From assembly GCA_944393575.1 (NCBI GenBank), contig CALYAP010000014.1:2819-66818 (forward strand): 64,000 nucleotides of DNA, in the 5' to 3' direction. The stretch is from an uncultured Clostridia bacterium. GTDB taxonomy: Bacteria > Bacillota > Dehalobacteriia > UBA4068. The translations under genes and the position numbers were made by a program. The notes beneath the pieces are model-generated. The model did no database searches, had not been told where the DNA came from, and saw only the letters and a program-made list of their open reading frames with translations. How positions within the stretch are numbered: position 1 is the first letter of the stretch; the number at the start of each line of letters is the position of its first letter. This document shows positions 5,755 through 14,219 of the stretch, one piece after another.

Positions 5755-5962
5755 TTGGCTCCCTCCATCAAATATGGTTAATAAAATAACTGTTTGCCCT
5801 AGGGCATAAACCAGTATAGCATAAACCAGAAATGGAAGTAAAGCTGAAAAAAGTATCTGCTAATTTATGACAATGCTCTATGGGATTCAGCTAATTGTTG
5901 TTGTTAAATCCCCTTTGTTCTGGGCATAATAAGCTGAGGTATAATTGAAGGAGGAATCATAG

Positions 5963-6221: not shown

Positions 6222-7508
6222 TTGGAAAATATTATTTGCCATATTGATGTTAATAGCGCTTTTCTTTCTTGGACCGCAGTAGATCGGCTGCATAGATTAC
6301 CTGATTCTATCGATATCAGAGAGACTCCTGCGGTGATCGGTGGAGACCAGCAAACGCGGCGTGGTATTGTTCTGGCTAGCAGTATTGTGGCCAAATCCTA
6401 TGGAGTTAAAACTGGCGAACCACTTTTTCAAGCATTACATAAATGCCCGCATTTAGCTATTTATGCCCCTGACTATGAGCTCTATGTGCATTGTTCTGCC
6501 CGATTAATGGATTTACTGCAGAAGGTAGCGCCAGTTGTCGAGCAGTATTCCATTGATGAGGCTTGGATCGATTTGACTGGTACTGATAAATTATATGGGG
6601 ATCCGGTACGTGTCGCTACACTGCTGAAAGACCGTATCCGCGATGAATTGGGCTTTACTGTCAATATTGGTATCTCGACTAATAAACTGTTAGCTAAGAT
6701 GGCCAGCGATTTTCTGAAACCAGACCGTGTTCATACTTTATTCCCGGATGAATTAGCTGCAAAATTATGGCCCTTGCCAGTAGGCAAGCTGTTTTTTGTC
6801 GGTCCGGCTACAGAGAAAAAATTGCTTGCTATGGGTATTTTAACCATCGGTGACTTGGCGAAAGCTGATGTTCGTCATTTACGCTCACGCCTGCATAAGC
6901 ATGGCGAGATCATTTGGCATTATGCTAATGGCCGCTGTTTTGATGTGGTAGCTAGTCAAGCTTCCTTGAATAAAGGGTATGGTAATTCTACCACCACTGC
7001 TTTGGATATTATCGATATTACCGCTGCCCATAAGGTATTGCTATCACTGAGCGAGACTGTGGGGGCCAGAATGCGACGGGACAACCAGTATGGTTCTTGT
7101 TTGACGCTTCACTTGCGTAGTAGCCAATTTCACGACTTTTCTCATCAATTGCAATTAGCCTATCCAACTAATTTGACCTTAGAGATATATCAGGCCGCCT
7201 GCTTGGCCTTGAATCAATTATGGGATAAGCATACGCCTTTGAGACAGCTGGGTATTTATATGAGTAAGGTCGATCATTATGGTATAAGACAAGGTAGCTT
7301 ATTTACTGATGATAATTATACTAAATTATCGCAAGTCGATAAAACCGTAGATAAAATAAGGGAAAAGTTTGGCAGCGATGCTATTTTCCGGGCCTGTTTG
7401 GCAGAAAAGAACATTAGGCCAATGAGTGGCGGCCCTCTCTCTGATCCCTTCCGGCAGCGGTCGCGATCTTCTGATAATCGTTCTTTGACTAATGATATTA
7501 AGAAATAA
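6222..7508 (+). CDS. dinB: DNA polymerase IV (Y-family translesion polymerase)
   Basis: MENIICHIDVNSAF aligns with MxKIIHVDMDxFF; fingers/palm/little-finger order. I chose the TTG at 6222 as the start. Confidence 0.9.
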   Translation: MENIICHIDVNSAFLSWTAVDRLHRLPDSIDIRETPAVIGGDQQTRRGIVLASSIVAKSYGVKTGEPLFQALHKCPHLAIYAPDYELYVHCSARLMDLLQKVAPVVEQYSIDEAWIDLTGTDKLYGDPVRVATLLKDRIRDELGFTVNIGISTNKLLAKMASDFLKPDRVHTLFPDELAAKLWPLPVGKLFFVGPATEKKLLAMGILTIGDLAKADVRHLRSRLHKHGEIIWHYANGRCFDVVASQASLNKGYGNSTTTALDIIDITAAHKVLLSLSETVGARMRRDNQYGSCLTLHLRSSQFHDFSHQLQLAYPTNLTLEIYQAACLALNQLWDKHTPLRQLGIYMSKVDHYGIRQGSLFTDDNYTKLSQVDKTVDKIREKFGSDAIFRACLAEKNIRPMSGGPLSDPFRQRSRSSDNRSLTNDIKK

Positions 7509-7820
7509 TTGAGCAAAGACGAAAAAAGACAGCTGTTAAGGCACCATCCGTAAGAAAGGTGCACTAAGACTTTTGTATATCAAATTAAAATTGTTGTGTT
7601 TTACCGGTGTAGCCTTTGGTTATGCCGTTTTTTCTTTGCTGCGTTCCAGTTCCGCTAAATGCTCTTGGAGTGATTCTTCCATTTCGAGTTTTCTTTCCTA
7701 TTCAGTTGTTGCTCTCTAAAAAGAGTATTTTATGTCCTACCAGATCAGAGATTATTTGTCAAGTTGCGTATAGACAGGCAAAAGTAAGGGCATACTAAAT
7801 AATTTTCCCTTCCGTAAATC

Positions 7821-7844
7821 GTGATATATTGCTATATAGATCAC
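7821..7844. promoter_or_regulatory. inverted repeat GTGAT-N14-ATCAC with internal palindrome CTATATAG; candidate operator upstream of the flavodoxin-fold operon
   Basis: Seen in sequence; ~270 bp upstream of 8115. Confidence 0.3.
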
Positions 7845-8114
7845 AATTTGTTTTATTCTCATAATATCCTCTCAACAATCCCTATTCCCTGTCGCATAAA
7901 GCGTCATACATACTTTTTACACATATTTAACCGAAAGCGGGTAGTTGCTTTATGCTGCACATTATATAATCAAAATGGAATATTGTCTTTGTGATAAGTT
8001 AAAATGCGAGACGCTTTTGGGGCCTTTTCATCACAAACGTTTCGACAAACCAGACCGCTATGTTTTCGGTAAGAATGGCGTTAAAAAGTTATTTTAAAAG
8101 GAGAAGCTGGTATA

Positions 8115-8611
8115 TGAAGGTGATAATCCACGATCTTAGAGAAGGGGAGGCTCTTTTTCTGGGAAAATCGGATAAGGATTCGGTTGTCATTCATGCGAAC
8201 AATCAGTATGCTCCCTGCTGTGGCTGTTTTAAGTGTTGGCTGAAGAACGCCGGTTTTTGCATAATGAAGGATTCTTTGCAGCACATTGGAGCGCTCATTG
8301 GCCAGAGTGATCCGCTGATCATCGTCAGCCAGTGCTGTTATGGTGGGTATAGCAGCCCTGTCAAGGCTATCTTGGATCGTGCGATTGGGGAGTCTCTCCC
8401 GTTTTTTACCTGGCGGGGCGGGCAAACTCACCACATTAGCCGTTATCCCCATCGGAAGTTGCTGCGTGTTTATTTTTATGGGGAATGCACGAAATTTGAA
8501 GAGGAGATAGCCAAAGAGGTTGTCGAGCGCAACCGTCTGAATCTGGATTATGAGGAAGCGGATGTGGTTTTCTTCAAAAATATCGAACAGATAAAGGAGG
8601 CCAGCTTATGA
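8115..8611 (+). CDS. Isf-like flavodoxin-fold protein with compact Cys motif (CCGCFKCx7C) but lacking the N-terminal FMN phosphate-binding loop
   Basis: APCCGCFKCWLKNAGFC followed by DPLIIVSQCCYGGYSSPVKAILDRAIG resembles the Isf / NADPH-dependent FMN reductase fold. RBS AAAGGAGAAG 7 nt upstream; ATGA overlap with the next gene. Confidence 0.55.
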
Positions 8612-9351
8612 ATCTTCTAATCTTGAATGCAAGTCCCAAGAAAAAGGGTGGCGCCTCCCGATTTTTCTCGGGTTTATTCCGGCTGTTTCTGCCGGGCATC
8701 CGAAAAAAAGTGGTATCCCTTAGCTGTCAACAAGATTTTCAGCGAGTACTGGAACTATTGCCCGGCATGGATGTGGTATGCCTTTTCGTCCCTCTTTATG
8801 TAGATGGCCTTCCGTCCCATATAGTGGAATTTCTCATCCAAGCGGAGGGATACTGTAAAAATCATCCTTGCCAGTTCCGATTGTATGTACTTGCCAATAA
8901 CGGTTTTGTCGAAGGAAAACAAAATCGACCCGCTCTAAATATGCTTCAGGCGTGGTGTGAAAGGGCAGAAATCACTTGGGGTGGCGGAATCGGAATTGGC
9001 GGCGGGGTGATGCTCCAGGTATTGGGGATCATTTACCCCATCCTGATTGGAATCATCCTGTTGCAAATGGCGTTATCCCTTTGCAGCATCGGCACCATTT
9101 CAGGCGAATTATGGCGTTCTTTCGTCATCCAGATGTTAACATGGCTTTTTCTCAATAGCGGCATGTTGTGGTGTATGGCACGTCTTTCGTCAGCTATCCG
9201 TAGGGAGCGAGTATTGCCCAACCAATTTACGCGGGTCATGATACCCTCTTGGCTGTTTATCCCCATCGCGGACGTATTTATGATTTTATCTTCTCTCTTT
9301 CAAGGCCGCTTTCTTTTCGCACTTTTGCAGCAGGACAAATGGCATAGTTAA
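8608..9351 (+). CDS. NAD(P)H-dependent FMN reductase-like flavodoxin-fold domain fused to a C-terminal multi-TM membrane anchor
   Basis: LILNASPKKKGGASRFF phosphate-loop-like N-terminus and VVCLFVPLYVDGLPSHIVEFL; C-terminal ~100 aa form hydrophobic helices. Confidence 0.55.
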   Translation: MNLLILNASPKKKGGASRFFSGLFRLFLPGIRKKVVSLSCQQDFQRVLELLPGMDVVCLFVPLYVDGLPSHIVEFLIQAEGYCKNHPCQFRLYVLANNGFVEGKQNRPALNMLQAWCERAEITWGGGIGIGGGVMLQVLGIIYPILIGIILLQMALSLCSIGTISGELWRSFVIQMLTWLFLNSGMLWCMARLSSAIRRERVLPNQFTRVMIPSWLFIPIADVFMILSSLFQGRFLFALLQQDKWHS

Positions 9352-9364
9352 TAGGAGGATAGTT

Positions 9365-9910
9365 ATGGAGCATATCATTGTCTACGGCAGCCATTATGGA
9401 AGCACCCGCCGATATGCGGAAAAACTGTCTGAACAAACCGATATTCCGGCGGTTAGTTATAAACAAATGCCAGATCTTTCCGATATAAAAACTATTATCT
9501 ATTTGGGTGGATTGTATGCTGGCGGCGTCCTGGGATTGGCAAAAACCTTGCGGGGCCTCTCCTTGCATGGGGGACAAACGTTGATCATCGTCACAGTGGG
9601 TTTGGCTGACCCCAAAGAACCGGAAAATCGAGAAAATATTCGAGTATCTCTTCAAAGACGGCTTCCGACAGAACTGTTTTGTCGGACGAAAATTTTTCAT
9701 CTTCGAGGGGGTATTGATTACCAGAACCTGAACGTCGGACACCGCACGATAATGGCATTACTGTACCAGTCTGTTTGCAAGACGTCTTGTGAAAAGCAAA
9801 CCGCAGAGAATCGGGCATTTATAGAAACTTATGGAAAACAGGTGGATTTTACAGATTTCCGTGCGTTGCAACCGATTATTGAGGAAATACAGGGGAAACG
9901 ATATGAATAA
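9365..9910 (+). CDS. flavodoxin-domain protein (HemG-like / Flavodoxin_5-type)
   Basis: MEHIIVYGSHYGSTRRYAEKL and IIYLGGLYAGG pattern matches the long-chain flavodoxin/HemG-like family; RBS TAGGAGGA. Confidence 0.6.
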   Translation: MEHIIVYGSHYGSTRRYAEKLSEQTDIPAVSYKQMPDLSDIKTIIYLGGLYAGGVLGLAKTLRGLSLHGGQTLIIVTVGLADPKEPENRENIRVSLQRRLPTELFCRTKIFHLRGGIDYQNLNVGHRTIMALLYQSVCKTSCEKQTAENRAFIETYGKQVDFTDFRALQPIIEEIQGKRYE

Positions 9911-10712
9911 AACCTTTAAAAATATACTGAAAATCCTTCTAATCGGTCTTATCACCACTATCGTCCGCATCATCGGGCAACTTTCTATCCCAGCTGGCGA
10001 GCAGACAGTTCTGGAGCCTAGTGTTTTCGCACAAAACGGTACCATGCCACTGGCTTTTACTGTCTATGGGATTTTCGCTTACTCACTGATTGCTTCGTTG
10101 TTCCTGCTCATCCGGAACCGGTTGGGCGGAAAGCTGATTTTACAGGGTCTGAAATACGGCCTTTCCTGCTGTGTTGTGTGGATTGTTTATCTTTTAGAAC
10201 CTTTACCCCATGTAGCGGTCATTGATCGGATTACTTACCCAGTGGCTGATAGCTTGGCTTTGATTGTTATGGGTTTGCTGCTTGGATGGCTATTTGGAAA
10301 ACCCAAATATTCAGCAGGCCTGCAGAAAACTGCATTTCCTGTCCTTCCAGTGCTGACCGTGACTGCCTGCTTCTTCGCCGGGCGGATGATACAATATTTT
10401 ATCTTTGGCATTTACTCTTCTTTTGATGAGAAACCATTGGAAACGGTACTGTGGTGTCTGTTGACAGGTCTTGCAATCTCCTGTGTGATGTCATGGCTGA
10501 ATCTTTATATTAGCAACGGAAATAGGGTAAAGAGGGCAATGATTTTGGGCTGCCTTTTGTTTGGGGTGGATTTGATTCTCTTCAATTTCTTTATGCCATT
10601 AGTGTTTGATGCAGACATCTCCGATCTGATCCTCCGAAGCTTAATCGACATCCTGGCAGTGACTCTCGGATGTCTGTCATTCTCGAATAAGCGTAATGCC
10701 GTTGAGCTGTAA
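9903..10712 (+). CDS. uncharacterised polytopic membrane protein (~7 TM)
   Basis: ATGA overlap with the upstream flavodoxin gene; hydrophobic throughout; no family recognised. Confidence 0.5.
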   Translation: MNKTFKNILKILLIGLITTIVRIIGQLSIPAGEQTVLEPSVFAQNGTMPLAFTVYGIFAYSLIASLFLLIRNRLGGKLILQGLKYGLSCCVVWIVYLLEPLPHVAVIDRITYPVADSLALIVMGLLLGWLFGKPKYSAGLQKTAFPVLPVLTVTACFFAGRMIQYFIFGIYSSFDEKPLETVLWCLLTGLAISCVMSWLNLYISNGNRVKRAMILGCLLFGVDLILFNFFMPLVFDADISDLILRSLIDILAVTLGCLSFSNKRNAVEL

Positions 10713-10726
10713 GGAAGGGGAACTGG

Positions 10727-11917
10727 ATGCAGGAAAAACGAAGTATTCGCTTTGGGAAATGGGTGCTTAAGGTTGTGGTATCTTATGCGGTGTTTATTAT
10801 CATCGGCCTGCTATTCTCCCTTGTCCCGGCCAGTCGTCTTGGATTGTCTGAAGAAATGTTTTTCAACCTTCGGATGTTTTTCATGCTCTTTGGCCCGATC
10901 TATCTCACCCTGATCGTCAAAATTATTTTGACCTTTATTCCTGCCATAAAAAAGCAGACAAAAGATATCGCCGAAAAAAGCAGGGGAGTTTTGTTTACCA
11001 TCACGGCACTGCTGCTATTTGCTAACCTATCCAATGCGCAGACGGTCTCCGACTTTACAACTGGATATGTCCAGGGCAAAGGATTGCGGAATCTGGAAAA
11101 AAGTAAACGGTATTCCCTGAAAGGCAAGCGTTTTCTAAATGTCTTTCTGCCGGTGGGGTTCTATTTGCTGGTTTTAGAACTGTTGACGCTCATCGTCTGT
11201 ATTGTCGTTTTTGCACCTCTTTCACAGATTGCCAGCCATGCCTTTATTCTTACCATTGCTTTGACCGCCTTGCTGTTGCTTTTGATTCCGCTTATCCTAT
11301 CCTTAATTTCTGGTTATCAGGGAGACAAGGCCGTATATAAAGAAAGGCTCGCACAGGAAAAGCAAGCTGCTGTCCAGTCAGATGTCCGGGTGCTGGAAAC
11401 CGACCCAGTTTGCCGGAAGCGGTATCTCCTGCTGCCAAAAATATTGACACTGTTAGTTTGTCCTGGCGTTTGCTTGATTTCTGGACTTGTACTTTCTCTT
11501 ACCAAGAACGCTCAGGATCTTTTGACCGTCCAGCTATTGAGGAGGCCATTTTTGGTGTTGATGGCTGTCGCCGTTTTCTCCTTTATCCCTCTGCTGATGT
11601 ATTGGGTCAACTGCTCCGGAACATCCTTGGTACAGCGGGTTTATCTTGAACAGAACCAGCTGTATTATACCGGTTACAGTGGCAGCATGGAGGAACGTAG
11701 GGAATTCACCTTTACACTGCTTCAACTGGAGAGCTATCGTGTTGGGAAAAGAGCCATCCGCATCCGAGGGCAGTTTACCAAAAAGACAAAGGATTCTTAC
11801 GCTACCAATAAAAAAGGCCCGTTCACCAAAACATTGTGGCTCCCTCGAACCTTCACGTTGGAACAGGAACAGGCCCTGTTGCAATTTTTACATGATAAAG
11901 CAGCTCATGTTCATTGA
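10727..11917 (+). CDS. uncharacterised membrane protein with N-terminal TM bundle and C-terminal soluble (possibly bacterial PH-like) domain
   Basis: RBS GGAAGGGGAA; multiple TM segments; C-terminal 90 aa are hydrophilic and K/R-rich. Confidence 0.5.
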   Translation: MQEKRSIRFGKWVLKVVVSYAVFIIIGLLFSLVPASRLGLSEEMFFNLRMFFMLFGPIYLTLIVKIILTFIPAIKKQTKDIAEKSRGVLFTITALLLFANLSNAQTVSDFTTGYVQGKGLRNLEKSKRYSLKGKRFLNVFLPVGFYLLVLELLTLIVCIVVFAPLSQIASHAFILTIALTALLLLLIPLILSLISGYQGDKAVYKERLAQEKQAAVQSDVRVLETDPVCRKRYLLLPKILTLLVCPGVCLISGLVLSLTKNAQDLLTVQLLRRPFLVLMAVAVFSFIPLLMYWVNCSGTSLVQRVYLEQNQLYYTGYSGSMEERREFTFTLLQLESYRVGKRAIRIRGQFTKKTKDSYATNKKGPFTKTLWLPRTFTLEQEQALLQFLHDKAAHVH

Positions 11918-12076
11918 CCGTTTTTTACTAGCTATACAAGAAATAAAGGCATAACGACACATAAAAAAGCAATCACTGTGCTGGAAGGCATACATTTCTT
12001 TACTAATTTAATGGATAAATTTTGATGATATTTTATTGTTTCCGACGTATTTCATGAATAGGAGGTGAGTTTGATG

Positions 12077-12253
12077 TACAAAACGGTGGTTGTCAAATAT
12101 TCTCCTAAGGCAAAGGAAATGGCCGTCAGAGTAGAGGAAACGGCCAACAAAATGGAACAGGACGGGTTTGAACTGGTTTCCTGCTCTATCACACCTTCTT
12201 CCAAAGGAATCCTGGTATTCAAAAAATCTGGTGAACTGGCGCTAGAAAAATGA
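12077..12253 (+). CDS. DUF4177-like mini-protein (58 aa)
   Basis: RBS AGGAGGTGA; MYKTVVVKY...DGFELVSCS...ILVFKK pattern recalled for DUF4177. Confidence 0.45.
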   Translation, partial: YKTVVVKYSPKAKEMAVRVEETANKMEQDGFELVSCSITPSSKGILVFKKSGELALEK

Positions 12254-12270
12254 GTCTTTCTTGTCGCAAA

Positions 12271-12315
12271 GAAAAAAGCACTTAGAAGCGAATGGTTCTA
12301 AGTGCTTTTGTTTTT
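12271..12315. terminator. bidirectional rho-independent terminator
   Basis: A6-agcacttagaa-loop-ttctaagtgct-T9. Confidence 0.8.
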
Positions 12316-13217
12316 ATGGTATTCAGAGCAGCGTCTTGTTTGGCCTTTGCCTTTTCTAAATCCTCAAAATCTCCTAAGTCGGTCAGTTGAACTTCCGATG
12401 CGTCTACAGTGAGCAGCACAAGCTGTCACAGCCTTATTTTTATAGCCGATTTTTATTTTCAGAAGCGGTAACCAAAAAATGCTGCTGCCATACATTGTTT
12501 CGTAGCTGATTCAGCTTTTCTCATTGGTCAGTTCTTCAACTTTTTGGATAATATTATAAACATGGCTTCTTCTCGGAGACACAGAAAGATATAAAAACCG
12601 GTCTTTGTCAGCAGTACATACGCTTTACGGATGTGAATATCAATCCCACCAGCCGGAGCAGATATTCATCGAGAATCAGGAATAGACACAATAGAGAAAA
12701 GGGCAAATAAACTATTTGGTTTGTCCGCTCTATATATTTGATTGAGAAATAGTACTATACATCTATATTGACAGCGGTAGAACTGGGTTTCAGGTTGATT
12801 TCTGAGCGCTATGAGTTGATCTCAGAGAGCTCTGAGCACAGTAGCGTGATCCACGCCAGCAACAAGTATTTCAGCCACTGGAGCGAGCCGCTCAGTGACA
12901 ATATACTGAGCCCTGAGCTCCAGGATAGTCTGCTTTTCCATGCTCATGTAGTGAAGCATTTATCGGTTGTGGAACCGTGTTAAGGCCAGTGCCCAGACGG
13001 TTCTGCCGACCAAAATTCTAGCAGCTGGCTGACTGGATGCTAGATTTGCGACGTTGCCAAGTGTTGTTTTGATTCCGGCGGTTGGGGTATCTTCTACATG
13101 GTATTTGAAGCTTTTTCATTCCAGCGTTGGCAATAGAAAGAGTAAACCCACTCACCCCATTTGGGTGGGTATGCGTGAGTGGGAAGATAAAAACAAAATA
13201 TTGCATCATAGAAAACA

Positions 13218-13257
13218 AGACGGGCAGAGTTTGAAAACTCTACCCGTCTTTATTATC
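13218..13257 (+). terminator. rho-independent terminator ending an unannotated, apparently non-coding, plus-strand transcript
   Basis: agacgggcagagtt / aactctacccgtct stem followed by TTTATTAT. Confidence 0.55.
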
Positions 13258-13384
13258 GGTAATTCTCCAATATGATTGCTTTTCCTATAAAACCAATTAT
13301 TCCGGCTGATTCCAAAAGCCGAAAAGAGAAAGCTTCCTTGCAAAGTGTCTCCCGTAAAGGCTGTCTTTTTTGCTTTTCCCCGGG

Positions 13385-13414
13385 GTATAAATGTTTGGGT
13401 TTACGGTAATAATT
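13385..13414 (+). promoter_or_regulatory. forespore sigma-F/sigma-G-type promoter for sigG (GTATA-15-GGTAATAATT)
   Basis: -35 GTATA 13385-13389, 15-nt spacer, -10 GGTAATAATT matches GGnnAnAnTn. Confidence 0.65.
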
Positions 13415-13448
13415 GATTCATAAGCGCCAACTCCGAGGAGTGAATAGC

Positions 13449-14219
13449 TTGCTTAATAAAGTGGAGATCTGCGGTGTTAATACCGCTAAGTTGCCAGTAT
13501 TACCAAATGACAGAATAAATGAATTGTTTGTAGAGATGCAAAAGGGGAATAGAGAGGCCCGGGAGGAGCTGATTGCCGGCAACCTTCGTCTGGTTTTGAG
13601 CGTTATCCAAAGGTTTAATAATAGAGGTGAAAATGCCGATGACCTTTTTCAGGTTGGCTGCATTGGTTTGATAAAAGCAATCGATAATTTTGATCTAAGC
13701 CAAGGCGTACGCCTTTCTACCTACGCTGTGCCGATGATCATTGGTGAGATCCGCCGCTATTTGCGTGATAATAATGCGATTCGTGTTTCCCGCTCTATGC
13801 GTGATATCGCCTACCGTGCGCTCCAGGCCAGAGACGCTTTTGTCAATGAGCATGGTAAGGAACCAACGATCGATGAAATAGCTAAAAAAATAGATTTGCC
13901 GCGCGAAGATGTTATTTTTGCTTTGGACGCAATAGCTGACCCGATATCCTTATTTGAGCCTATCAGCAATGAGAGTGGCGACCCAGTATACATGATGGAT
14001 ATGGTTGGCGATGAAAAATATGGCGAAAAGACCTGGCTGGAATCCCTGAATATCCGGGAAGGATTGTCCAAATTAGGCGAACGGGAGAAAAAGATTATCA
14101 ATCTACGCTTTTTTGTCGGCAAAACGCAGATGGAAGTGGCAGAAGAGATCGGTATTTCTCAGGCGCAGGTGTCACGCTTGGAAAAAGGCGCTTTGATGCA
14201 GCTGCGTAAGTATATTTAA
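13449..14219 (+). CDS. sigG: sporulation sigma factor sigma-G
   Basis: Near-identity over long stretches to B. subtilis SigG as recalled (NKVEICGV, GNLRLVLSVIQRFNNRGE, FQVGCIGL, MIIGEIRRYLRDNN, QMEVAEEIGISQAQVSRLEK). TTG start after a GAGGAG RBS; the track start at 13413 is too long. Confidence 0.93.
   Translation: MLNKVEICGVNTAKLPVLPNDRINELFVEMQKGNREAREELIAGNLRLVLSVIQRFNNRGENADDLFQVGCIGLIKAIDNFDLSQGVRLSTYAVPMIIGEIRRYLRDNNAIRVSRSMRDIAYRALQARDAFVNEHGKEPTIDEIAKKIDLPREDVIFALDAIADPISLFEPISNESGDPVYMMDMVGDEKYGEKTWLESLNIREGLSKLGEREKKIINLRFFVGKTQMEVAEEIGISQAQVSRLEKGALMQLRKYI

What the first reader, a model, noticed from the sequence alone, without database searches (positions are those of the whole stretch)
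9903..11917. Two uncharacterised polytopic membrane proteins coupled to the flavodoxin triad; the second has a soluble basic C-terminal domain
I can assign no family to the 269-aa and 396-aa proteins. The first overlaps the HemG-like gene by ATGA. The 396-aa protein has ~6 TM helices and then an ~90-aa K/R-rich domain (YLEQNQLYYTGYSGSMEERREFTFTLLQLESYRVGKRAIRIRGQF...). This is reminiscent of membrane-flanked bacterial PH-like domains.
Basis: inference. Interest (0 to 1): 0.5.

Follow-up and report, generated by a model that had tools for sequence, protein, structure and literature searches.

The report
Two unassigned membrane proteins, flavodoxin operon
Two real but unclassified membrane proteins sit in an operon with flavodoxin-like genes in a gut Clostridia genome; the larger one founds an unannotated family whose short relatives lie next to putative toxins in type VII secretion loci, so a protective role is at least as likely as a redox one.

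Summary
Both genes (269 aa, 9903-10712; 396 aa, 10727-11917) are real, under purifying selection (dN/dS 0.05-0.17) and match no Pfam, NCBIfam, PADLOC, PHROG or PDB family.

- **269-aa protein:** about 8 TM helices, N-in. It is consistently but sub-threshold DUF6789-like. It is missing or broken in about a quarter of related operons.
- **396-aa protein:** 6 TM helices plus a basic cytoplasmic beta-sheet/helix domain. Its conserved core, the last TM hairpin plus that domain, also exists as free-standing proteins of about 170 aa (hhalign 99.5%). These lie, often in tandem, just after a putative membrane-active effector in type VIIb secretion loci.

Linkage to flavodoxin genes is clade-specific. 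The HemG-like gene is adjacent in 29/31 loci where the 396-aa protein is at least 60% identical, in 2/12 at 45-60%, and never beyond.

A conserved promoter motif precedes the operon, solo copies of the 396-aa gene, and neighbouring sigI-rsgI operons.

Best reading, low confidence: a stress-induced, immunity-like membrane protein with optional flavodoxin passengers. The bacterial PH-domain idea is neither confirmed nor excluded. Function remains untested.

The parts
7914..7970 (+). Conserved promoter region. It contains the motif TTTACACATATTTAACC (7916-7932), GGGTAG (7939-7944) and TATAAT (7965-7970).
   Evidence: The same architecture occurs in 23 unique promoters, including solo copies of the 396-aa gene. 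The motif also precedes the sigI-like gene in all 6 loci where it is adjacent. In the window there is only one hit with at most 1 mismatch.
8114..8611 (+). g165: a flavodoxin-fold protein with a weak FMN_red match and a CX2CX2CX7C cysteine motif. Optional operon member.
   Evidence: Present in 13/28 close loci.
8608..9351 (+). g247: flavodoxin-like N-terminal half plus 3-4 C-terminal TM helices. Optional operon member.
   Evidence: No family match. Present in 13/29 close loci.
9365..9910 (+). g181: HemG-like flavodoxin (Pfam Flavodoxin_5).
   Evidence: Pfam E 8.7e-16. Adjacent to the 396-aa gene in 29/31 close loci.
9903..10712 (+). g269: the 269-aa polytopic membrane protein, about 8 TM helices, N-in/C-in. 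It has conserved extracytoplasmic loops (EPLPH, FDADIxD) and five near-invariant cysteines.
   Evidence: DUF6789 matches sub-threshold in 27/28 members, best E 8e-5. dN/dS 0.05-0.17.
10727..11917 (+). g396: the 396-aa membrane protein, 6 TM helices plus a cytoplasmic domain. Founder of an unannotated family.
   Evidence: dN/dS 0.10-0.15.
11384..11914 (+). The conserved C-terminal module of g396 (residues 220-396). It comprises a short strand, the TM5-TM6 hairpin, a 5-strand sheet and a C-terminal helix. Motifs: RKRYLxLP, NCSGxSLxQ, YSGS and PRTF.
   Evidence: AlphaFold pLDDT about 90. Homologous to stand-alone proteins of about 170 aa: whole-library E 5e-15 to 6e-5 and hhalign 99.5%, E 2e-22. 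Alignments.
11615..11914 (+). The soluble, basic beta/alpha domain of g396 (residues 297-396). The positive-inside rule places it in the cytoplasm.
12074..12253 (+). g62: a small 59-aa conserved ORF downstream of g396, probably the last gene of the unit.
   Evidence: Follows g396 in 34/47 close loci. No family match.
12274..12309 (.). Strong bidirectional terminator-like hairpin (14-bp stem) after g62.

Best explanation
The region is a six-gene operon: g165-g247-g181-g269-g396-g62. Its constant member is the 396-aa protein.

**What g396 is.** It founds an unannotated family of membrane proteins defined by a C-terminal module. That module is a TM hairpin whose two cytoplasmic ends (a short N-terminal strand and a C-terminal domain of about 100 aa) assemble into a basic beta-sheet capped by a helix. 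Four further TM helices precede it in the long form.

**What I infer it does.** The family acts as a membrane-embedded, stress-induced protective or 'immunity-like' adaptor. It would bind a client (a membrane-active toxin or a resident membrane protein) through the hairpin and the cytoplasmic domain. It is not a redox cofactor carrier.

**The other genes.** In one gut-Clostridia clade the gene shares its transcription unit with a HemG-like flavodoxin and a small 59-aa protein. It variably also shares it with two more flavodoxin-fold proteins and the 269-aa protein. The 269-aa protein is an accessory 8-TM protein, distantly DUF6789/DUF1440-like, with a conserved extracytoplasmic face. It is dispensable for the unit.

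**Shown:** gene reality, architecture, family boundaries, homology to the short form, the genomic contexts, and the shared promoter motif.

**Inferred:** the cytoplasmic location of the domain, the immunity-like role, the link to the sigI-type regulon, and any physical partnership with the flavodoxin.
For: 1. **The family is narrow and unannotated.** There were 111 hits in 1.84 billion cluster representatives. No Pfam, NCBIfam or PDB match was found.

2. **The conserved residues lie in the C-terminal module, not the N-terminal TM helices.** Nearly invariant positions are R230, P288, S300, Q303, Y314, G319, S320, R342, R374, E381 and L388.

3. **The module exists on its own.** Free-standing proteins of 167-184 aa align end to end with residues 225-396. 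A natural in-frame deletion in L081 recreates this short form.

4. **Short forms sit in type VIIb secretion loci.** Three short forms less than 50% identical to each other lie in this gene order: EssC, two WXG100 genes, a 111-118-aa ORF, a 402-415-aa protein with two hydrophobic helices, the module (one to two copies), a TPR protein, then another WXG100 gene. That is the usual position of immunity genes. Immunity to channel-forming effectors is usually provided by polytopic membrane proteins (PMC12744356).

5. **Other relatives lie in accessory contexts.** One is at a prophage edge beside holin and endolysin (L049). One is in a mobile-element-like region (L050).

6. **Flavodoxin linkage is clade-limited and has been lost in places**.

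7. **The promoter follows g396.** The motif TTTTACAnAnnnTTAAC, about 49 nt upstream of TATAAT, precedes g165-first, g181-first and solo-g396 units. It also precedes the adjacent sigI-rsgI operons in 6/6 loci. This suggests one inducible envelope-type regulon.

8. **g269 is absent, frameshifted or partly deleted in several otherwise intact operons**.
Against: - Nothing here is functional evidence.
- The 402-415-aa neighbour in the type VII loci matches no known toxin or LXG family, so the 'immunity position' is itself inferred. The three loci share one architecture and may be one orthologous island type.
- The window holds no type VII genes, and g396 is not in tandem copies there.
- Tight, translationally coupled linkage of g181 and g396 in 29/31 close loci is classic evidence of a shared function. 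An immunity reading does not explain it.
- The promoter motif lacks an obvious canonical sigma-I A-tract/CGWA pattern (PMC10575876).
- Locus counts include near-identical metagenome contigs.
- The 269-aa structural model is poor (pLDDT 60).
Confidence: 0.35

Rival explanations
1. g269 and g396 are the membrane subunits of a flavodoxin-based redox module. They would anchor the three flavodoxin-fold proteins at the membrane and pass electrons to or from the quinone pool or an extracytoplasmic acceptor. For g269 the path could be a relay through its conserved cysteines (C89/C90, C185, C194, C257).
For: - The operon has overlapping or closely spaced genes.
- g181-g396 adjacency holds in 29/31 close loci, and g269 always lies between them when present.
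- g247 is itself membrane-anchored.
- g269 has near-invariant cysteines inside TM helices and conserved charged residues.
- g396 has an invariant Glu in TM3 within the close family.
Against: - Every g396 homologue below about 57% identity whose context was read lacks flavodoxin neighbours. That covers the 12 loci in the 45-60% band (10 without) and 8 more distant contexts.
- The flavodoxin genes were deleted in L019 while g396 and g62 were kept.
- g269, g165 and g247 are each optional.
- Family-wide conserved residues of g396 lie in the cytoplasmic domain and show no cofactor-binding motif.
- The invariance of the g269 cysteines is weakly informative, because all known members are at least 66% identical.
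Confidence: 0.25
2. The C-terminal module is a very divergent bacterial PH (bPH_2, YdbS/YdbT-type) domain. The protein would then work like YdbST or DdE/DdF: membrane proteins needed for export of, or resistance to, small membrane-active peptides such as leaderless bacteriocins.
For: - The architecture is the same: a TM hairpin followed by a cytoplasmic beta domain ending in a helix, in a short 2-TM form and a long 6-TM form. Compare YdbS (159 aa, 2 TM) and YdbT (493 aa, 6 TM) (PMC8657885).
- Relatives occur in bacterial competition loci.
Against: - No bPH Pfam model matched any of 31 members, even at E<=10.
- Foldseek against PDB gave no PH-fold hit among the 50 matches listed; the best matches were sheet-plus-helix proteins at E>=0.1.
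- The long form has one beta domain, not three.
- No TM-hairpin repeat was detectable.
- No bacteriocin or ABC genes are in the operon.
Confidence: 0.15
3. g269, alone or with g396, is a transporter or channel, and the flavodoxin-fold proteins are its ancillary or regulatory subunits. The analogy is KefF/KefG, which activate the KefC/KefB potassium efflux systems. That analogy comes from my own knowledge and was not tested here.
For: - g269 has 8 TM helices with many conserved charged or polar residues inside helices, and conserved extracytoplasmic loops.
- It is co-transcribed with flavodoxin-fold proteins.
Against: - No transporter family matched by HMM or by fold. The best Foldseek hit had E 0.63 and TM-score below 0.3, on a low-confidence model.
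- No internal repeat typical of transporters was found.
- g269 is dispensable in many operons.
Confidence: 0.1
4. The ORFs are chance reading frames or decaying pseudogenes.
For: None, apart from isolated broken copies in other genomes: a frameshifted g269 in L011, a partly deleted g269 in L026, and an insertion in g396 in L087.
Against: - There are hundreds of full-length homologues.
- dN/dS is 0.05-0.17 with dS of about 1.
- Ribosome-binding sites and start positions are conserved.
Confidence: 0.01

Closest known systems
YdbS/YdbT and DdE/DdF (bPH_2, Pfam PF03703; COG3402/COG3428)
   Same: - A TM hairpin directly followed by a small cytoplasmic beta-rich domain that ends in a helix.
- A short 2-TM form and a long 6-TM form.
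- Association with bacterial competition and peptide-resistance functions (PMC8657885).
   Different: - No sequence-profile match.
- No PH-fold match in PDB.
- The long form here has a single beta domain and an unrelated N-terminal 4-TM part.
- It is co-transcribed with flavodoxin-like genes, which is not reported for YdbST.
Polytopic membrane immunity proteins of type VIIb secretion toxins (e.g. ExiC/ExiD, DUF5079/DUF5080)
   Same: The short relatives are small membrane proteins encoded directly downstream of a putative membrane-active effector in an EssC/WXG100 locus. They occur in tandem paralogous copies, and orphan copies occur elsewhere (PMC12744356).
   Different: - No homology to those DUF families.
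- The neighbouring effector is unclassified.
- The window gene is not in a type VII locus and is not duplicated.
- Protection has not been tested.
TMEM70/TMEM186/TMEM223 (Pfam PF06979)
   Same: A TM hairpin followed by a soluble domain of about 90 aa. It was one of two families matched weakly by more than one module sequence, and the only one whose match reached the soluble domain: 2 of 21 members, E about 0.09.
   Different: - The match is not significant and is far below the gathering score.
- That family is eukaryotic and mitochondrial.
- Its role in assembling membrane-protein oligomers comes from my own knowledge and was not tested.
DUF6789 (PF20587) and DUF1440 (PF07274, YagU-like) for the 269-aa protein
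   Same: Residues 47-132 align to most of the DUF6789 model in 27 of 28 family members (best E 8e-5). DUF1440 matches in 2 members.
   Different: - Every score is below Pfam's gathering threshold.
- The 269-aa protein is about twice as long, with an extra N-terminal helix and three to four further TM helices.
- Both DUFs are themselves functionally uncharacterised.

Membership tests
bPH_2 / YdbS-YdbT (PF03703) | Sequence-profile match to the Pfam bPH models | tested here: not met
   No bPH family at E<=1 for the window protein, at E<=5 for 10 distant members, or at E<=10 for 21 module sequences.
bPH_2 / YdbS-YdbT (PF03703) | A TM hairpin immediately followed by a cytoplasmic beta domain of about 80-100 aa capped by a C-terminal helix | tested here: met
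   AlphaFold model: helices 227-258 and 266-302, strands 304-373, helix 378-395, pLDDT about 90. Positive-inside charge distribution.
bPH_2 / YdbS-YdbT (PF03703) | PH superfold shown by structure comparison | tested here: inconclusive
Type VIIb secretion membrane immunity proteins | Encoded directly downstream of a secreted toxin in an EssC/WXG100 locus | tested here: inconclusive
   Met for the short homologues P0314, P0319 and P0334, although the upstream 402-415-aa protein is only a putative effector. Not met for the window gene, since the window has no type VII genes.
Type VIIb secretion membrane immunity proteins | Protects cells against the cognate toxin | not testable with these tools
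   Needs co-expression or competition assays.
DUF6789 (PF20587), for the 269-aa protein | Score above Pfam's gathering threshold (27.1 bits) | tested here: inconclusive
   The window protein scores 15.2 bits, E 0.023. 27/28 members match below threshold, best E 8.1e-5. The match is consistent but never significant by the curated cut-off.
Known transporter families, for either protein | HMM or fold match to a transporter family | tested here: not met
   Pfam and NCBIfam gave none. PDB profile searches gave none. Foldseek best E was 0.63 for g269, on a low-confidence model.
Membrane redox subunits (heme or quinone carriers, thiol relays such as CcdA/DsbD) | Family-wide conserved cofactor ligands or HMM match | tested here: not met
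   No HMM match. The residues of g396 conserved across the family are not His or Cys pairs. g269 does have conserved cysteines, but only within a narrow family at least 66% identical.
TMEM70 family (PF06979) | Sequence-profile match above threshold | tested here: not met
   E 0.093, 13.1 bits against a cut-off of 22. Only 2 of 21 members matched.

The most novel reading that the evidence does not exclude
The TM-hairpin plus cytoplasmic beta/alpha module defines a new class of membrane immunity or adaptor proteins of Bacillota. The short form would neutralise membrane-active type VII effectors. The long form would have been recruited into a sigma-I/RsgI-controlled envelope-stress regulon. There it would tether a HemG-like flavodoxin, with optional Isf-like and membrane-anchored flavodoxin-fold partners and an 8-TM cysteine-rich protein. 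Together these would form a previously undescribed flavodoxin-driven membrane repair or redox-defence system.
Probability: 0.12. Interest if true: 0.65.

Novelty: new variant of a known kind. Interest (0 to 1): 0.4.

Why it matters
Both proteins belong to families missing from current annotation resources, yet they are conserved and under selection in human- and chicken-gut Clostridia such as Gemmiger, Intestinimonas, Owariibacterium and Faecalibacterium-like isolates.

If the module is an immunity-type adaptor, it would do three things:
- add a new family to the type VII toxin-immunity repertoire;
- give a handle on an unclassified putative effector;
- link a sigma-I/RsgI-type envelope signal to flavodoxin-like proteins, a connection not described so far.

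If the redox reading is right instead, it would be a new membrane partner for HemG-like flavodoxins.

Either way, this work yields testable parts: a defined minimal module, natural deletion variants, cultured host strains, and a conserved promoter motif.

Tried and rejected
**Searches that gave nothing**
- The AFDB Foldseek library was not available.
- Foldseek against PDB gave nothing significant for either model.
- PADLOC and PHROGs: no match.
- tblastn of g396 against the plasmid and phage collections: no match.
- Rfam over 7000-13600: no match.

**Ideas tested and dropped**
- Internal duplication of the g269 halves or of the three g396 TM hairpins: hhalign probability at most 12%.
- A conserved 5'UTR RNA structure: the consensus fold is only -3 kcal/mol with one covarying pair.
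- Homology between the module and the other '2 TM plus soluble' proteins of the type VII loci (225 aa and 181 aa): none.
- g62 as DUF4177: one member in 12 matched, at E 0.11. This is a resemblance only.
- The glycine zipper in g247 (GGGIGIGGG) as a conserved toxin-like feature: present in only 5/11 homologues.
- The operon as a cassette on a recognisable mobile element: no integrase or transposase recurs in the flanks, and only one IS3-like fragment was seen by eye, in L012.

**Left unresolved**
- Reading the promoter motif as PhoP-type hexamers or LytTR-type direct repeats. The canonical sigma-I A-tract/CGWA pattern is not evident either.

**Could not be run**
Full report
**1. What is there**

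On the + strand the window carries a compact gene row:
- g165, 8114-8611
- g247, 8608-9351
- g181, 9365-9910
- g269, 9903-10712
- g396, 10727-11917
- a small ORF, g62, 12074-12253, followed by a strong hairpin terminator at 12274-12309

Gene callers on identical metagenome contigs give the same products: 165, 247, 181, 269, 396 and 59 aa.

The flanks are ordinary chromosome. A cyclophilin-like isomerase, a phosphofructokinase-like gene, an ECF sigma factor (Pfam) with a beta-propeller protein downstream, and a DinB-type polymerase (Pfam) lie upstream. A SigF/G-like sporulation sigma factor, SpoIIR and NrdR lie downstream (the first two are my reading of the ORF translations).

The g181/g269 overlap is 8 nt (ATGAATAA), not ATGA. 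g396 follows g269 after 14 nt, with a GGAAGGGG ribosome-binding site.

**2. Are the two genes real?**

Yes.
- Each has more than 100 listed full-length homologues at 60-100% identity.
- Start positions agree across alignments.
- Pairwise dN/dS against five related loci is 0.05-0.17, with dS about 0.9-4.5.

**3. The 269-aa protein**

Hydropathy and the AlphaFold helices give about 8 TM helices. The K/R distribution fits N-in/C-in.

The short extracytoplasmic loops are the most conserved parts: PAGEQTVLxPSxFAQNGTMP, EPLPH and FDADIxD. Five cysteines are near-invariant: C89, C90, C185, C194 and C257. However, all 133 known members are close relatives.

No family passes threshold. DUF6789 matches residues 47-132 in 27 of 28 members (best E 8e-5) and DUF1440 matches in two. 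So it is probably a distant, enlarged relative of those uncharacterised 4-TM families.

The model is poor (pLDDT 60), and Foldseek finds nothing. No internal repeat is detectable.

**4. The 396-aa protein**

It has six TM helices plus an amphipathic helix in a very basic loop. A soluble tail of about 100 aa follows, with 16 K/R against 9 D/E in residues 301-396. All the long, basic segments fall on one side, so the tail is predicted to be cytoplasmic.

With a 44-sequence alignment, AlphaFold gives pLDDT 78 overall and about 90 for residues 220-396. The order of elements there is:
- a short strand (221-223)
- helix 227-258
- helix 266-302
- five strands (304-373)
- a C-terminal helix (378-395)

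**5. Family limits**

A profile search of 1.84 billion cluster representatives found only 111 hits, most of them fragments. Two informative groups emerged:
- Distant full-length proteins of 337-440 aa at about 20% identity.
- Proteins of 167-184 aa that align end to end with residues about 225-396.

Profile-profile comparison of the close family with the short proteins gives 99.5% probability, E 2e-22. The positions conserved across everything lie in the module: R230 in RKRYLxLP, P288, S300 and Q303 in CSGxSLxQ, Y314, G319-S320, R342, R374 in PRTF, and E381.

None of these proteins hits any Pfam family. PDB sequence profiles give nothing.

**6. Is the domain a bacterial PH domain?**

The outline fits YdbS/YdbT: a TM hairpin, a cytoplasmic beta domain capped by a helix, and short and long forms (PMC8657885).

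The tests that could be run did not support membership:
- No bPH model matched at E<=10 in 21 members.
- No PH-fold hit was among the 50 listed Foldseek matches against PDB. The best matches were sheet-plus-helix proteins at E>=0.1.

**7. Genomic contexts**

In 33 genome loci and 35 metagenome loci I mapped the six window genes. The table gives how often each gene is present next to the g396 homologue. These are loci whose g396 homologue is at least 60% identical to the window protein.

| Gene | Loci with the gene / loci assessable |
|---|---|
| g181 | 29/31 |
| g269 | 27/36 |
| g247 | 13/29 |
| g165 | 13/28 |
| g62 | 34/47 |

These counts include near-duplicate contigs.

The operon occurs in several forms: g165-g247-g181-g269-g396, g181-g269-g396, g165-g247-g181-g396 (in Gemmiger, Intestinimonas and Allofournierella isolates), and g396 alone.

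At 45-60% identity only 2/12 loci have g181. One example is the P0244 clade, where g396 lies between an MFS transporter and aromatic amino-acid genes.

Distant full-length relatives are single genes in unrelated places. One lies divergent from pstSCAB, one next to a LysM protein, one next to ScpAB, and one at the edge of a prophage beside holin and endolysin.

Broken or rearranged copies also occur:
- L019 keeps a 5' stub of g165 fused upstream of g396-g62, so the flavodoxin genes were deleted.
- L081 carries an in-frame deletion that reduces g396 to the short form.
- L011 and L026 have a broken g269.

**8. Short forms and type VII secretion**

P0314, P0319 and P0334 are less than 50% identical to each other. 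Each lies in this gene order:
1. EssC (FtsK/FHA domains)
2. two WXG100 genes (TIGR03930, E 9e-24)
3. a 111-118-aa ORF
4. a 402-415-aa protein with a helical N-terminus and two hydrophobic helices
5. one or two tandem module paralogues
6. a TPR protein
7. another WXG100 gene

This is the position normally held by immunity genes. Immunity to channel-forming type VII effectors is usually provided by polytopic membrane proteins, and orphan copies are common (PMC12744356).

The putative effector itself matches no known family. Another short form lies in a mobile-element-like region with an adhesin and a Dam methylase. The window itself has no type VII genes.

**9. A shared promoter**

Upstream of the operon lies TTTACACATATTTAACC (7916-7932), then GGGTAG, then TATAAT (7965-7970).

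The same layout recurs in 23 unique promoters: TTTTACAcAGatTTAAC, about 49 nt, then TATAAT. It recurs whether the first gene is g165, g181 or g396 itself.

In all six loci where a sigI-like/rsgI-like operon lies next to the unit, the same motif (at most 1 mismatch) also precedes the sigI-like gene on its own strand. The identifications rest on SigI E 9e-54 and RsgI_M E 1e-19.

Sigma-I operons are reported as autoregulated and linked to heat, envelope, iron and carbohydrate sensing (PMC4711584, PMC10575876). The canonical A-tract/CGWA pattern is not obvious here, so the regulon link is tentative.

The key point is that the promoter travels with g396. That makes g396 the constant cargo and the flavodoxin genes and g269 variable passengers.

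**10. Interpretation**

The strongest facts pull in two directions.
- Within the close clade, g181 and g396 are almost always adjacent. That argues for a shared function.
- Across the family, the protein works without any flavodoxin. Its conserved core is a cytoplasmic domain on a TM hairpin, and its minimal form sits where immunity genes sit.

I therefore rank the readings as follows:

| Reading | Confidence |
|---|---|
| Stress-induced, immunity-like membrane adaptor | 0.35 |
| Redox anchor | 0.25 |
| Divergent bPH/YdbST-type function | 0.15 |
| Kef-like transporter with flavoprotein subunits | 0.10 |

None of these is demonstrated.

**11. Novelty and score**

Both proteins are members of unannotated families. 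The architecture of g396 resembles known TM-hairpin plus beta-domain proteins, without detectable membership.

This is a modestly interesting result with clear experimental handles. It is not a new mechanism. Interest is 0.4.

Noticed in passing
window 7914-7970; also L007, L011, L013, L014, L020 and L023 upstream of the sigI-like genes: A conserved promoter motif, TTTTACAnAnnnTTAAC about 49 nt upstream of TATAAT, is shared by the operon, by solo copies of the 396-aa gene, and by adjacent sigI-rsgI operons. This suggests one regulon. The transcription factor or sigma factor that reads it was not identified.
   Followed up: partly
window 12074-12253: A 59-aa conserved ORF (MYKTVVVKYSPKAKEM...GFELVSCSI...GILVFKK) follows the 396-aa gene in 34/47 close loci. 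In L035 and L036 the same domain forms the C-terminus of a 331-aa protein whose N-terminal part looks to me like a PHP phosphoesterase (not tested). No family matched; DUF4177 was seen once, at E 0.11.
   Followed up: partly
window 12303-12407, minus strand: A 35-codon relic of the 3' end of a CotH-family kinase gene, 80% identical to the intact gene in L007. An intact or longer CotH-family gene lies a few hundred bp to about 1.4 kb downstream of g62 or g396 in L007, L008, L011 and L023, and upstream of the unit in L013. The 1.1-kb 'empty' stretch before the SigF/G-like sigma-factor gene is therefore probably deletion debris.
   Followed up: yes
window 8114-8611 and 8608-9351: g165 has an Isf-type CX2CX2CX7C cysteine motif but lacks the N-terminal FMN phosphate loop. 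g247 has such a loop (LILNASPKKKGG), plus C-terminal TM helices that begin with a GGGIGIGGG glycine zipper. The zipper is conserved in only 5 of 11 homologues.
   Followed up: partly
L081 5938-6534; L087 2904-6246; L019 1-153; L011 7191-7974: Natural variants were seen in related loci:
- an in-frame deletion that turns the 396-aa protein into the 2-TM short form (L081);
- an insertion of about 2.7 kb inside the gene (L087);
- deletion of all flavodoxin genes, leaving a stub of g165 (L019);
- an apparently frameshifted 269-aa gene in the complete Owariibacterium komagatae genome (L011).
   Followed up: partly
L043 7052-7729 and 9381-9926; L041 8761-9306: The same type VII loci encode two further unassigned '2 TM plus soluble domain' proteins, of 225 aa and 181 aa, each following a WXG100 or TPR gene. 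Neither is detectably related to the module.
   Followed up: partly
L011 about 5897-5931, minus strand: Copies of the promoter motif with two mismatches lie about 100-140 nt upstream of an operon. By eye its products resemble vWA-, XpaC- and TelA-type stress proteins, though they were not scanned against any family library. This hints at a wider envelope-stress regulon.
   Followed up: no
L017, L020, L021 and L033, upstream of g165; relics in L013 and L023: In the variant operon without g269, two paralogous membrane-anchored proteins of about 260 aa (no family match) sit between the promoter motif and g165. A 3' relic of such a gene sits between the promoter and g181 in L013 and L023.
   Followed up: no
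window 13217-13250: A strong 15-bp-stem hairpin, scored as a minus-strand terminator, lies in the non-coding stretch upstream of the SigF/G-like sigma-factor gene. No gene is assigned to it and there is no Rfam match.
   Followed up: no
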